DNA of 64,000 nucleotides from Escherichia coli. Lineage in GTDB: Bacteria; Pseudomonadota; Gammaproteobacteria; Enterobacterales; Enterobacteriaceae. The stretch lies in assembly GCF_044324785.1 (NCBI RefSeq), contig NZ_CP172127.1. One strand, 5' to 3'. The position numbers are program-made. Positions 3,001-6,000 of the stretch are shown one piece after another; the first letter of the stretch is position 1; each line of letters begins with the position of its first letter.

Positions 3001-6000
3001 CTCCCGAAAAACCGTATACCTCGACGGGCTGGCACAGCCACTACAGTAGAGGACGCTGAGGTGTGCGTATGATTGATATTCATGCCGAATTAAACGAATA
3101 CAAAAAAGATTTTATTTCTTTACGTGAATTTCTTGAGGTCGTGCTTAAGGTCGCTGGTGATGATTATGATGTTTCAGATCTCATAACTTGGATACTCAGG
3201 AGAATAAGCGGAGAACATATCCGCCTGTACACAGTAAATGAATTTAAGCTGTTGGAATCTTTTTGTAACCCGTATCGGGATGAATTTGATTATGATGTTC
3301 TTTATAGAAATCTGGATGCGGTTCGGAAACATGGTTGTTTACCTGGTGAGAGGGATGAAAATGGTTTTCTGGTGTCCGGTTATTGGGAAGATCCCGAATT
3401 TGAGAACATTGGATTTATAAGGGGTGAAATTTTCGCAATTTTTCCCGATGTCCTTGACGCGTTAACGAAGCTGGAAGGCGCTAACTCTTCTGAAAATGAC
3501 GAGGTACAAGGACGCGATATTGAAAAGAAAGAGTTGCGTACAGAGGATGATTTATTATCCCAAATCGCAATGCTGGAAAGAGAAAACGCAGAGTTAAGGG
3601 CAAGGATAGAGCAGTTAGAGCAAGAGCGCCCGATACACTTATATAAATACTGGGATAAAGACCCATTAGCTAAGGCTATTGAGATTAGAAACAGAGAGTG
3701 GGCCAATTACGATCCAGAAAATGATTTTGCCACCAGGGGAAATCAAGAAGCGATAACCAGGGAGCTTAAGCAGTGGGGGGCAAGTAATGCTCTTGCAACG
3801 CTCATAGAGAGGACTGCCTGCCCTATTAACCGAGACAACAGCCAAAAGAACGCAAAGCCGGATTAACGCACCATACCGCATACCCTGAGGGTGATTTACT
3901 GTTACCCTGAGGGTATTTTTTTATCTTCCCCGTCAATTTTACCATCACCCTTAGGGTAGATTTCCTCCCGATTACCATCACCCTTAGGGTTAATTTCCTT
4001 CCGGTAACCATTAGGCCTGAGGGTATGAAAATATTCGTTATTTCTGTGCCATGATTACCTCGTCAAATTGAGTAGACGTTATGAGGTAAATAGATGTCAA
4101 ATACGCTTATTCGTTTAACAGAAGTTCAGCGTAGAACTGGATATAGCAAGGCATGGATTTATCGCCTTATGGGGCAAGGTAAATTTCCTGCATCAGTTAA
4201 AATTGGCTCGCGAGCGATTGCTTTCGTTGAAAGTGAAATTGACGAATGGATCAATCAGCGTATTGCCGAATCACGCGGAACGGCTGCCTGATTAAATAGC
4301 TACGGGTTATTGCCCAAGCTATCCACTAGCAAATAAAAAGTAACTTAATTCGATAGCGGAGTTTTTATGAAACTGCGAAAAACGCCCGTACAGGGGCAGG
4401 GCTTTGTTCGGCCTGAAAACCAGAATCTGCAAAATTTCGGCGAAATTATCCCGGTTATTTCCGGCGTTATTGGCGGGCGTGAAGCCGCTGTTGTTAGCGC
4501 AAAAGCGTTACACAAAGCGTTGGGCGTGGGAAAAGACTTCTCTACATGGATCACTGATCGTATCTCTGAATATGACTTCACCATTGGGTACGATTACTCA
4601 GTCCATAAAACAATTTCCCCAAATTTGGGGAAAAGCCCGAATGGCGAGGCTTACAGCAAGATTAAGCACTCTGGCAGACCCGGTAAAGACTATCTGTTAA
4701 GTGTCGGAATGGCGAAAGAACTGGCAATGATCGAACGCACCGAACAGGGCCGCGCCGTTCGTCAGTACTTCATCAAATGCGAGGAGGAGCTACACAAAGT
4801 AGCGCCAGTGCGTTCCGCAGCGTTACGCCGTGAACTGAAAGCCCGTATCACCGTTGCCAGCTACTTTAAGCCGATGTGTGCCGCGCTGGAGGCGTACCGC
4901 GCTGAACTGGGTAAAAACACGCTCCAGCACCACTACACCACGGAAGCCAATATGCTGGCGCGTATCGTGCTGGGTGGCATGACTGCAAAACAGTGGGCGC
5001 AGGCGAACGGCATCACAGGCGAACCACGCGACCACATGAGCACGCTGCAGCTTGAGCACCTTTCTTACCTTGAGCAGAGCAATATCACGCTGATTGAGTT
5101 AGGCCAGGACTACCACCAGCGGAAAGCTGAATTAATTCGTCTTTCGCAACGCTGGTTAGCCCGCCGCATGGAGGTGAGCAGCCATGCGTAAACCTGTCTT
5201 TTATGCCGGGCGCACTGAAATCTCTGTCATTAAATTCGATGACATTCAGGTGCGCATAGTGAGTATCAACGGCGAGCCGTGGTTTGTTGGCGCTGATGTG
5301 TGTGCTGCGCTGGAAATCAGCAATGTTACTGATGCTGTTTCAGTTCTGGATAACGACGAGGTAATGACCCTAGCTTTAACCGAGGGGCATTCCGGTAAGC
5401 GTGGTGGTGCCAGAAGCTGGAATGTTGTCTCTGAATCAGGTTTCTACAAACTGATCGCCCGCAGCCGTAAAGCTTCCACACCTGGCACATTTGCGCACCG
5501 TTTCAGTAACTGGGTATTCCGCGAGGTTATTCCTTCAATCCGCAAAACGGGGAGTTATGGTGTTCCGTTTGCCATGCTGAATGATTTCAGTAAACGCCAG
5601 GCTGCATATCAACAGGAAGCCAGCAAACGCGGTTACAGGTTACAGCAATGCAAAGAGGCAAAAGATGCACTGGAACGAGAAGAGCGGGCGCTATGGCGTA
5701 AATATCAGCCTGATTTTCTGGAGGGTGAAAGCAATGTGTAACGATCCGAACGTTACAGAAAGAAAAAGCGCCCCGTTGCTGGATAACAGGCAAAACAAAG
5801 GCGACCGGGATAGGTCGCCAGTGGGAACAAAGGAAATCAAACGCATCGCCAACAATGCCAGATTTGCGGCTGGTGGGCAATGTGATCAGTGTGCTGGCTT
5901 GCTGGTGGGCTATTCCTGCTCTTTAGCATCGCCATACTGCGATGTTTTCCAGGTATGCGATCCCATTTTTGTGCGCCTGTACTCTTTTAAGAACTTCTCA

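What the first reader, a model, noticed from the sequence alone, without database searches (positions are those of the whole stretch)
3881..4024. Array of ACCCT-N-AGGGT dyad motifs between the int-proximal gene and the alpA-like gene
Five copies of an 11-bp near-palindrome, ACCCTGAGGGT (x2), ACCCTTAGGGT (x2) and a partial fifth, are embedded in longer direct repeats within ~145 bp, ending ~70 bp upstream of the AlpA-like gene. The density and dyad symmetry suggest cooperative binding by a dimeric protein, such as an AlpA/Xis-type directionality factor or a repressor controlling excision.
Basis: seen in the sequence. Interest (0 to 1): 0.45.

Follow-up and report, generated by a model that had tools for sequence, protein, structure and literature searches.

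The report
Phased dyad operators upstream of satellite alpA
A conserved, helically phased row of small palindromes sits in front of the master-switch gene (alpA) of an E. coli phage-satellite island; comparison of related islands suggests it is bound by the uncharacterised protein encoded just upstream, not by AlpA, which gives a testable lead on how such islands are switched on.

Summary
There are four exact ACCCT-N-AGGGT dyads (3882, 3904, 3947, 3980) and one degenerate copy (4014-4024). No other match with up to one mismatch exists in the 64 kb window.

The array lies in a 19-kb PICI-like satellite integrated at tRNA-Gly, between an unannotated 265-aa gene and alpA.

Relatives in E. coli, Citrobacter, Salmonella, Yersinia and a metagenome keep the half-sites while the flanks diverge. 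They keep the two proximal sites 75 and about 109 bp before the alpA ATG, and they space the dyads by multiples of about 11 bp. The 33-bp unit varies from 1 to 4 copies among strains. This fits cooperative binding by a symmetric dimer.

The proposed binder is not supported. An island with the same AlpA and the same integrase has entirely different dyads. An island with a very different AlpA keeps the dyads. The dyads follow the conserved C-terminal ~70-aa domain of the upstream protein, which has a variable N-terminus, a coiled coil and this C-terminal domain.

Dyads 1 and 2 also form a strong intrinsic terminator for that upstream gene.

Binding, the sign of regulation and the promoter position are inferred, not shown. 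The array is a new variant of a known kind, of moderate interest.

The parts
2985..3052 (+). Rfam RF02996 'int-alpA RNA' motif, just upstream of the int-proximal gene. It is context for the module, not part of the dyad array.
   Evidence: cmscan score 46.9 bits (gathering score 35.8), full-length match. The same motif lies at the same place in L005, L008, L129, L130, L131, L133 and L135.
3069..3866 (+). Int-proximal gene of 265 aa: variable N-terminal domain (about 1-140), coiled coil (about 159-186) and a conserved four-helix C-terminal domain (about 187-258). It is the candidate dyad-binding regulator.
   Evidence: No Pfam, NCBIfam, PADLOC or informative PHROG match. AlphaFold model: mean pLDDT 75.6; C-terminal domain alone 80.2. 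The coiled-coil segment hits leucine zippers. PGAP start in the identical record.
3880..3922 (+). Intrinsic terminator of the upstream gene. A hairpin spans 3880-3916, built from dyad 1 and dyad 2 (15 pairs, one G.G mismatch, 5-nt loop), followed by a U-run at 3917-3922.
   Evidence: RNA fold -23.9 kcal/mol, z = -6.7 against shuffles. The terminator scan also flags this spot. It starts 14 nt after the stop codon at 3864-3866. The equivalent hairpin folds at -18.0 kcal/mol in L005 and -26.6 in L129, where the central bases are complementary.
3882..3892 (.). Dyad 1, ACCCTGAGGGT (centre -207 from the alpA ATG).
3904..3914 (.). Dyad 2, ACCCTGAGGGT (centre -185).
3939..4004 (.). Two 33-bp tandem units carrying dyad 3 (3947-3957, centre -142) and dyad 4 (3980-3990, centre -109). 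The unit count is 1 to 4 in other E. coli strains.
   Evidence: L003 has 1 unit, the window 2, L002 3 and L004 4.
4007..4024 (.). Promoter-proximal composite site ACCATTAGGCCTGAGGGT. It is a degenerate form of an 18-bp palindrome that is perfect in Salmonella (ACCCTGAGGCCTCAGGGT) and near-perfect in Yersinia (ACCCTTAAGCTTGAGGGT). It contains dyad 5 (4014-4024, centre -75).
4047..4055 (+). Candidate extended -10 element of the alpA promoter (TGcCATGAT). This is inferred, not mapped.
   Evidence: The TGnNATGAT block is conserved in all five diverged relatives aligned. The consensus sigma-70 scan found no promoter in 2900-4500, which fits a weak or factor-dependent promoter.
4055..4089 (+). Inverted repeat TTACCTCGT (4055-4063) and ATGAGGTAA (4081-4089). 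If transcribed, it would sequester the alpA Shine-Dalgarno (GAGG, 4083-4086).
   Evidence: A 9-bp stem in the MFE fold. The stem is kept through wobble or compensatory changes in L130, L135 and L138. L007 (CACCTT/AAGGTG) and L008 have analogous stems of other sequence.
4094..4291 (+). alpA (65 aa, Phage_AlpA / HTH_17), the gene downstream of the array.
   Evidence: Its role as master activator in Gram-negative PICIs comes from PMC6092414 and PMC11773190.

Best explanation
The array is the control region of the alpA promoter of a PICI-like phage satellite. It is a row of two-fold symmetric operator sites (half-site ACCCT, 5-1-5 geometry) placed on one face of the DNA helix. I propose that the sites are bound cooperatively by a coiled-coil dimer of the protein encoded immediately upstream (3069-3866), through its conserved C-terminal ~70-aa helical domain.

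The most likely working model is repression. The protein is made in the quiescent island from the int-side transcript. It occupies the sites, including the composite site that abuts the promoter, and keeps alpA off. Its highly variable N-terminal domain senses a helper-phage or cellular cue that releases it. AlpA is then made and drives the satellite cycle. Activation instead of repression is almost as likely; I put repression to activation at about 55:45.

The two distal dyads additionally form the RNA hairpin of the intrinsic terminator that ends the upstream gene's transcript. This insulates alpA from int-side read-through.

Shown: the dyads, their conservation, phasing, fixed position and copy-number variation; their dissociation from AlpA and Int; their association with the C-terminal domain; and the terminator fold. 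Inferred: actual binding, the promoter and transcription start positions, the sign of regulation, and the sensor role of the N-terminus.
For: (1) Cluster: four exact dyads within 109 bp and none elsewhere in 64 kb.

(2) Purifying selection on the half-sites. In L005/L006 the upstream protein is 62% identical to the window's. In L129 (Citrobacter) the figure is 59%, in L130 (Salmonella) 39%; L135 (Yersinia) and L138 (metagenome) are also diverged. In all of these the ACCCT/AGGGT arms persist while flanks and the central base change.

(3) Geometry. The proximal sites are centred at -75 and -109 (or -108, -107, -116) from the alpA ATG in all these lineages. All 22 adjacent spacings counted are 21-23, 31-34 or 41-44 bp; at the overlapping composite sites in Salmonella and Yersinia the spacing is measured to the right-hand dyad. 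Mean deviation from an 11-bp period is 0.68 bp, and 0 of 100000 random sets do as well, although the lineages are not independent. For the window alone p is about 0.005.

(4) The 33-bp (three-turn) unit varies from 1 to 4 copies among E. coli strains without losing phase.

(5) Two-way dissociation from AlpA, and dissociation from Int. L007 has the same AlpA helix-turn-helix and the same Int protein as L003 but a different dyad family. L133 has a different AlpA-like protein and the same dyad type. L141 has a different AlpA from L007 and the same L007-type dyads.

(6) Association with the C-terminal domain. Loci whose upstream proteins have unrelated N-termini (P0031/P0034, where only 22 aa align; P0036 and P0047, with no BLAST hit) keep ACCCT-type dyads, and their C-terminal domains are 54-69% identical to the window's. 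More distant C-terminal domains go with other dyads of the same 5-1-5 geometry (ACTAT-N-ATAGT in L134 and L137).

(7) The family comprises 167 clusters at 50% identity among 1.84 billion proteins, with the domain at the C-terminus in nearly every protein of typical length (200-350 aa). In L137, L138 and L139 the gene lies directly upstream of an AlpA-family gene even where no integrase is adjacent.

(9) Published work shows that PalpA is the helper-responsive master switch of Gram-negative PICIs, with no repressor or cis-element identified so far (PMC6092414, PMC11773190).
Against: There is no binding data.

The dyads and the upstream gene are physically adjacent. Their co-variation could therefore reflect linkage within one recombining cassette rather than recognition.

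The helix that looks like a recognition helix differs between the window protein and the L005 protein, although both loci use the same dyad.

All sites lie upstream of the inferred core promoter (about -43 to -175). This is more typical of activators than of repressors.

The promoter itself is inferred only from a conserved block.

EcCICFT073, the best-studied Gram-negative PICI, appears from the paper's ORF numbering to have no gene between int and alpA. Any such regulator would therefore be specific to a subfamily.

Dyads 1 and 2 are fully explained by terminator function in the window.
Confidence: 0.45

Rival explanations
1. A protein encoded elsewhere binds the dyads: a helper-phage protein (the unknown inducer of alpA) or a host regulator. 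The upstream gene would then be only a linked passenger, for example an accessory or defence gene.
For: Helper phages switch on PalpA in EcCICFT073 and EcCIMP1 through an unidentified factor. The region between int and the regulator is a known accessory-gene site in PICIs. Linkage alone could produce the co-variation seen. The fold evidence for DNA binding by the C-terminal domain is weak.
Against: Within one host species, and with identical AlpA and Int, the dyad family switches exactly when the upstream gene family switches. The gene-plus-alpA pairing persists in distant loci. The C-terminal domain is conserved across swapped N-termini, as expected of the part that touches a conserved partner. 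No known E. coli regulator motif or publication matches the dyad.
Confidence: 0.2
2. The dyads act only as RNA structure. They would form a series of hairpins (a terminator plus attenuator-like stems) in read-through transcripts from the int side, controlling alpA by termination or antitermination, with no operator function.
For: Dyads 1 and 2 fold into a -23.9 kcal/mol hairpin followed by a U-run (z = -6.7). The central bases of the first pair are complementary in 3 of 5 lineages (A/T in L005, G/C in L129, A/T in L135). In L133 the two copies are individually imperfect palindromes yet perfectly complementary to each other. The whole intergenic RNA folds better than shuffles (z = -2.8). An AlpA-named protein of P. 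aeruginosa is an antiterminator (PMC9371919).
Against: An RNA stem does not require each arm to be a palindrome by itself, yet every copy is one. Dyads 3-5 have no U-tract. Varying the unit count from 1 to 4 would rewire any RNA fold but keeps DNA phasing. The 11-bp periodicity and the fixed distance of the proximal sites to alpA are DNA-level properties. The first pair is mismatched at the centre in the window and in Salmonella. No Rfam family matches the region (best hit E = 0.16).
Confidence: 0.15
3. AlpA itself, or the integrase with an Xis-type directionality factor, binds the dyads for autoregulation or to control excision.
For: AlpA activates its own promoter in EcCICFT073 and EcCIMP1. 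The array lies directly upstream of alpA.
Against: L007 has the same AlpA DNA-binding region and the same Int protein as L003 but completely different dyads. L133 has a different AlpA and the same dyads. The array is 2.3 kb from the att core. Excisionase-type winged-helix proteins bind direct repeats as monomers (background knowledge). AlpA autoregulatory sites, if any, are more likely in the 70 bp proximal to the gene, part of which is shared by the window and L007.
Confidence: 0.08
4. The array is a replication origin or cis-replication region made of iterons, or a packaging (pac/cos-type) recognition site of the satellite.
For: It consists of phased tandem repeats with variable copy number, which resembles iterons and terminase-binding arrays.
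Against: A separate, typical iteron origin lies where PICI origins are expected, right after the DUF927 primase gene. It has TAACCCGCAAA three times at a 21-bp period (9547-9609) plus two inverted copies (9464-9490) (layout from PMC6092414 and PMC10111431). Its sequence is unrelated to the dyads. The dyads keep a fixed distance to the alpA start codon, which points to transcription control.
Confidence: 0.04

Closest known systems
alpA promoter region of Gram-negative PICIs (EcCICFT073, EcCIMP1)
   Same: The gene order is the same (int, then alpA, then the Bro/AntA zone, then primase and ori). alpA is the master activator, it is positively autoregulated, and the helper phage switches it on (PMC6092414, PMC11773190, PMC10111431).
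   Different: No cis-elements have been mapped in those promoters. The int-alpA spacer of EcCIMP1 has no ACCCTNAGGGT array. EcCIMP1 carries only a short, unrelated ORF there, and EcCICFT073 apparently carries none. The family studied here adds a 230-350-aa gene with a conserved C-terminal domain, plus the dyad array.
SaPI Stl master repressor and its operators (Gram-positive PICIs)
   Same: Stl is a satellite-encoded regulator that holds the island silent and is released by a helper-phage protein. Its sensor part is highly variable among islands. That is the logic proposed here.
   Different: Stl has an N-terminal HTH and a C-terminal sensor, and it is transcribed divergently from its target (background knowledge). 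Here the variable part is N-terminal, the conserved candidate DNA-binding part is C-terminal, and the gene is co-directional with and upstream of its target. There is no sequence similarity, and the function here is untested.
Lambda CI at the OR/OL operators
   Same: Several dyad-symmetric sites lie about 2-3 helical turns apart and are bound cooperatively by a dimer. A site next to the -35 can either repress or activate.
   Different: Lambda operators are 17 bp, with half-sites about one turn apart. Here the dyad is 11 bp (5-1-5), with half-site centres only 6 bp apart. Such close half-sites are more typical of ribbon-helix-helix or other compact dimers. The protein fold is different and unclassified.
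P. aeruginosa AlpA and its binding element (ABE)
   Same: The protein is named AlpA, positively controls downstream lysis or cycle genes, and acts at a promoter with a terminator nearby.
   Different: A single AlpA molecule binds one 6-bp non-palindromic element (GGGACG) between -35 and -10 and acts as a Q-like antiterminator (PMC9371919). The 65-aa enterobacterial AlpA is a different, much smaller protein. The array here is upstream of the promoter and palindromic.
Recombination directionality factor sites (lambda Xis, TorI, P4 Vis)
   Same: AlpA belongs to the same excisionase-like winged-helix superfamily, and those proteins bind arrays of closely spaced sites.
   Different: Those sites are direct repeats next to the att core and are bound by monomers (background knowledge). 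This array is dyad-symmetric, lies 2.3 kb from the core, and does not co-vary with AlpA or Int.

Membership tests
Operator array of a dimeric transcription regulator | Each site is two-fold symmetric, and selection acts on the half-sites rather than on the spacer. | tested here: met
   The ACCCT/AGGGT arms are kept in E. coli, Citrobacter, Salmonella, Yersinia and a metagenome, while the central base is G, T, A or C and the flanks diverge.
Operator array of a dimeric transcription regulator | Sites are phased on one helix face and positioned relative to the regulated promoter. | tested here: met
   Spacings are multiples of about 11 bp. The proximal sites lie at -75 and about -109 from the alpA ATG in all lineages. 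The promoter itself is only inferred (one search found no consensus promoter; conserved TGnNATGAT block).
Operator array of a dimeric transcription regulator | Demonstrated binding by a cognate protein and an effect on transcription. | not testable with these tools
   This needs EMSA or footprinting and reporter assays.
AlpA / Xis-type (RDF) binding sites | The site sequence co-varies with the AlpA/Xis protein. | tested here: not met
   The same AlpA goes with different dyads (L007 versus the window and L003), and a different AlpA goes with the same dyads (L133).
AlpA / Xis-type (RDF) binding sites | Direct-repeat sites located in the att arm next to the recombination core. | tested here: not met
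   The sites are palindromes. The array lies about 2.3 kb from the att repeat at 1544-1562.
Rho-independent terminator (dyads 1 and 2 only) | A stable GC-containing hairpin immediately followed by a U-run, located just after a stop codon. | tested here: met
   Hairpin at 3880-3916, -23.9 kcal/mol, z = -6.7, followed by U6 at 3917-3922, starting 14 nt after the stop codon. The hairpin is conserved in L005 and L129. The U-run is weaker in L129 and poor in Salmonella.
Replication iterons | Repeats adjacent to the initiator gene and bound by it; the island has one such origin. | tested here: not met
   A distinct iteron cluster lies at 9464-9609, right after the primase gene. The dyads are 5.4 kb away and unrelated in sequence.
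Gram-negative PICI (the element that carries the array) | Integrase next to a tRNA att site with flanking direct repeats; co-oriented alpA; Bro/AntA zone; primase followed by an origin; size about 10-20 kb. | tested here: met
   tRNA-Gly at 1488-1561. A 19-bp direct repeat at 1544 and 20689 gives a 19.1-kb element. Int, AlpA, AntA, Bro-N and DUF927 primase are present, with iterons after the primase. The four-zone layout follows PMC10111431.
Gram-negative PICI (the element that carries the array) | Induction and packaging by a helper phage; genes that redirect packaging or capsid assembly. | not testable with these tools
   No recognisable packaging genes were found. The late zone holds four proteins with no Pfam or PADLOC match. 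Mobilisation needs experiments.
Rfam int-alpA RNA (RF02996) | Match to the covariance model above the gathering score. | tested here: not met
   The motif is present in the window, but at 2985-3052, upstream of the 265-aa gene. The dyad region gives only a chance-level RAGATH-25 hit (16.2 bits against a gathering score of 49, E = 0.16).

The most novel reading that the evidence does not exclude
The int-proximal proteins form a previously unrecognised family of satellite master regulators. A new C-terminal DNA-binding domain, dimerised by a coiled coil, reads the dyad array in front of alpA. An exchangeable N-terminal domain serves as a sensor for different helper phages. If so, this would be the Gram-negative counterpart of SaPI Stl, and the missing link between helper infection and alpA induction in this PICI subfamily. 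The operator would also double as the regulator gene's own terminator.
Probability: 0.3. Interest if true: 0.75.

Novelty: new variant of a known kind. Interest (0 to 1): 0.5.

Why it matters
In Gram-negative phage-inducible islands, alpA is the switch that starts excision, replication and transfer. How a helper phage turns it on is unresolved in the papers read here: no repressor, inducer or cis-element has been identified (PMC6092414, PMC11773190).

This locus offers three concrete things to test:
- a defined, conserved set of candidate operators
- a specific candidate trans-factor, with a domain architecture that suggests sensing
- natural variants suited to specificity-swap experiments: 1 to 4 repeat units, swapped N-termini, and alternative dyad families paired with the same AlpA

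The element is common, present in 147 of 5426 complete E. coli genomes, and it carries an uncharacterised four-gene cargo. Understanding its switch therefore bears on the spread of satellite-borne traits.

If the model is wrong, the region is still a well-supported regulatory region combined with a terminator, which is ordinary biology.

Tried and rejected
It never reached the enterobacteria, so it gave no information on distribution. I replaced it with protein-guided retrieval of loci.

(2) Family searches for the upstream protein found nothing meaningful in Pfam, NCBIfam, PADLOC or PHROGs; only the coiled coil scored. A PDB sequence profile found only leucine zippers.

(4) A full-text literature search for the four dyad strings returned only primers and eukaryotic sequences.

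(5) Rfam on the array gave only a sub-threshold hit.

(6) I considered and rejected the origin/iteron hypothesis after finding the real iteron cluster at 9464-9609.

(7) I tried to locate EcCICFT073 in NC_004431 by guessing coordinates, to inspect its int-alpA spacer. Those regions hold a lambdoid prophage and core genes, so I gave up. The statement that EcCICFT073 lacks an intervening gene therefore rests only on the ORF numbering in PMC6092414.

(8) A simple 'recognition code' between residues of the C-terminal domain and the dyad letters could not be derived from the few dyad types available.
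Full report
**1. Observation**

- ACCCTGAGGGT lies at 3882-3892 and 3904-3914.
- ACCCTTAGGGT lies at 3947-3957 and 3980-3990.
- A degenerate fifth copy, GGCCTGAGGGT, lies at 4014-4024.

With up to one mismatch these are the only matches in 64 kb, against an expectation of 0.76 for the whole window. Hits with two mismatches elsewhere are at chance level. Dyads 3 and 4 sit in a 33-bp tandem repeat. The array ends 69 bp before the ATG of a 65-aa Phage_AlpA protein at 4094-4291.

**2. Context**

The window is E. coli. It is 100% identical to strain SCU-105 over the 1.4-kb segment searched (window 3000-4400). The array belongs to a 19.1-kb island at tRNA-Gly(CCC), bounded by a 19-bp direct repeat at 1544 and 20689.

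The gene order of the island is:
- integrase, 1687-2940
- an Rfam 'int-alpA RNA' motif, 2985-3052
- an unannotated 265-aa gene, 3069-3866
- the dyad array
- alpA, then AntA, then Bro-N
- two YlcI/YnfO-like genes and an Icd-like gene
- DUF4222, then the DUF927 primase
- SSB, ProQ/FinO and a frameshifted PerC gene
- four large unknown proteins

This matches the four-zone layout of Gram-negative phage-inducible chromosomal islands (PMC10111431). An iteron cluster (TAACCCGCAAA) directly after the primase gene, at 9464-9609, is the probable origin. This removes the origin explanation for the dyads.

The intergenic array is present in 147 of 5426 complete E. coli genomes, at both the glyU and thrW sites.

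**3. Conservation**

Among E. coli strains the 33-bp unit occurs 1, 2, 3 or 4 times (L003, window, L002, L004).

In more distant relatives the ACCCT/AGGGT arms persist, while the central base takes all four values and the flanks diverge. The relatives examined were:
- L005/L006, where the upstream protein is 62% identical to the window's
- Citrobacter L129, 59% identical
- Salmonella L130, 39% identical
- Yersinia L135 and the metagenomic contig L138, also diverged

The proximal sites sit at -75 and about -109 from the alpA ATG in every lineage. In Salmonella and Yersinia the proximal site is an 18-bp palindrome (ACCCTGAGG|CCTCAGGGT), and the window's fifth 'partial' dyad is the decayed form of it.

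All adjacent spacings counted fall at 21-23, 31-34 or 41-44 bp, that is, 2, 3 or 4 turns of an 11-bp period; at the overlapping composite sites of Salmonella and Yersinia the spacing is taken to the right-hand dyad.

Three properties stand out: each site is a palindrome in its own right, the sites are phased, and they keep a fixed register to the downstream gene. These are DNA-level properties and argue for a symmetric DNA-binding protein that acts on alpA transcription.

**4. Who binds**

The decisive comparisons are natural swaps.

- L007 (E. coli, thrW) encodes an AlpA that differs from the window's only at residues 2, 4 and 65. It also encodes the very same integrase protein as the dyad-bearing locus L003. 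Yet it contains no ACCCTNAGGGT. Its int-proximal gene is of another type, and the spacer carries repeated 16-bp AATRGT-N4-RCYATT dyads. These are conserved in the 73%-identical relative L141, which has a different AlpA.
- Conversely, L133 (Salmonella) has a very different AlpA-like protein but ACCGTGAGGGT-type dyads.

So the dyads follow neither AlpA nor Int.

They do follow the upstream protein, and specifically its C-terminal ~70 residues. The N-terminal parts of P0031/P0034, P0036 and P0047 are unrelated to the window protein (22 aligned residues, or none). Their C-terminal domains are 54-69% identical to the window's, and their loci keep ACCCT-type dyads. More remote C-terminal domains (44-49% identical) go with ACTAT-N-ATAGT, which has the same 5-1-5 geometry but different letters.

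An exhaustive profile search finds 167 clusters at 50% identity among 1.84 billion proteins. The domain is at the C-terminus in nearly every protein of typical length (200-350 aa), and the N-termini are unknown to Pfam. In L137-L139 the gene again lies directly before an AlpA-family gene.

This supports the upstream protein as the cognate binder but does not prove it. Linkage within one cassette remains a formal alternative.

**5. The terminator**

Dyads 1 and 2 and their flanks fold into a 15-pair hairpin (3880-3916; -23.9 kcal/mol; z = -6.7) followed by a U-run. The hairpin starts 14 nt after the upstream stop codon. The equivalent hairpin is perfect in Citrobacter (centres G/C) and in L005 (centres A/T).

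It is open whether they are also bound by protein.

A purely RNA explanation for the whole array is unlikely. Dyads 3-5 lack U-tracts. Each copy is a palindrome by itself. Changes in copy number would rewire any RNA fold while preserving DNA phase.

**6. Promoter**

No consensus sigma-70 promoter is found in the region. A TGnNATGAT block (4047-4055) is conserved in all five diverged relatives aligned and is the best candidate for an extended -10 element.

On that assumption the dyad centres lie near -43, -77, -110, -153 and -175. The composite proximal site abuts the -35 region. This position allows either repression or class-II-type activation, so I cannot decide the sign of regulation.

I lean slightly towards repression, for three reasons:
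- the gene sits in the int-side unit that should be expressed in the quiescent island
- uncontrolled AlpA expression harms the cell through runaway island replication (PMC6092414)
- the variable-sensor architecture parallels SaPI Stl

**7. Comparison with known systems**

[quoted passage not shown] It stimulates its own promoter and is induced by helper phages through an unknown factor. No repressor is known (PMC6092414, PMC11773190). No paper in the searchable library mentions the dyad.

P. aeruginosa AlpA is a different, larger protein that binds one 6-bp element as a single molecule (PMC9371919).

The region is therefore a new variant of a familiar kind of element: the operator region of a mobile element's master switch. 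It is coupled to an uncharacterised protein family.

**8. Verdict**

A dimer-binding regulatory array controlling alpA is likely. AlpA, Xis or the integrase as the binder is unlikely.
- My best model is that the upstream protein binds through its C-terminal domain, with the distal pair of dyads doubling as the gene's terminator. Confidence is 0.45.
- Interest is moderate (0.5). The region turns an open question about satellite induction into specific experiments, but nothing here is mechanistically unprecedented.

Noticed in passing
window 2985-3052 (+): An Rfam RF02996 'int-alpA RNA' motif (46.9 bits, gathering score 35.8) lies between the integrase stop and the 265-aa gene. The same motif precedes the homologous or analogous gene in L005, L008, L129, L130, L131, L133 and L135. 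In this island family it is therefore the leader of the int-proximal gene, not of alpA. Its function is unknown.
   Followed up: partly
window 4055-4063 and 4081-4089 (+): An inverted repeat, TTACCTCGT and ATGAGGTAA, would sequester the alpA Shine-Dalgarno in a 9-bp stem. The stem is maintained through wobble or compensatory changes in Salmonella, Yersinia and L138. Stems of other sequence occur at the same place in L007 and L008. If the promoter is at 4047-4055, only read-through transcripts from upstream would contain both arms, so the stem may silence alpA translation from int-side read-through.
   Followed up: partly
window 9464-9609: This is the probable satellite origin. Iterons TAACCCGCAAA occur three times in direct orientation at a 21-bp period (9547, 9568, 9589), with two inverted copies at 9464-9490, immediately after the DUF927 primase gene (stop at 9449).
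   Followed up: partly
window 11682-19343 (+): A four-gene cargo operon of the island encodes proteins of 843, 686, 925 and 104 aa. None has a Pfam or PADLOC match. It sits in the position where satellites often carry defence or accessory systems and could be an undescribed system.
   Followed up: partly
window 1544-1562 and 20689-20707: The 19-bp direct repeat TTCCCTTCGCCCGCTCCAA (the 3' end of tRNA-Gly and its copy) marks attL and attR of a 19.1-kb island.
   Followed up: yes
L007 3261-3450; L141 about 2200-2420: A second family of int-proximal genes (about 235 aa, with an N-terminus reading 'FSITQAALLLAGIDP') is followed by its own array of 16-bp dyads (AATRGT-N4-RCYATT, for example AATAGTGGTCGCTATT and AATAGTGGGCACTATT). 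The first copy is again part of a terminator-like hairpin. This is the same architecture with a different specificity.
   Followed up: partly
L134 3679-3835; L137 3547-3707: Distant members of the C-terminal-domain family are followed by ACTAT-N-ATAGT dyads, which have the same 5-1-5 geometry as ACCCT-N-AGGGT. In L137 and L139 the module lies after a phage TerL gene rather than an integrase, so it may belong to a helper-embedded satellite or a prophage.
   Followed up: no
L009-L128 (genome-contig hits, e.g. JADIYP010000001.1): Genomes of Ardenticatenaceae, Ca. Leptovillus and Ca. Leptofilum (Chloroflexi) contain hundreds of dispersed and tandem repeats carrying pairs of ACCCTNAGGGT about 33-45 bp apart. 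This appears to be an unrelated genome-wide repeat family.
   Followed up: no
window 5910-6107 and 6165-6362 (-): Two tandem paralogous 65-aa genes lie on the opposite strand. One matches DUF3950 (annotated YlcI/YnfO family) and weakly resembles a HicB-like antitoxin. They sit next to the Icd-like region, where relatives (L131, L133, L135, L136) carry P4-type C4/isrK immunity RNAs. No C4 RNA reached the gathering score in window 1-12000.
   Followed up: no
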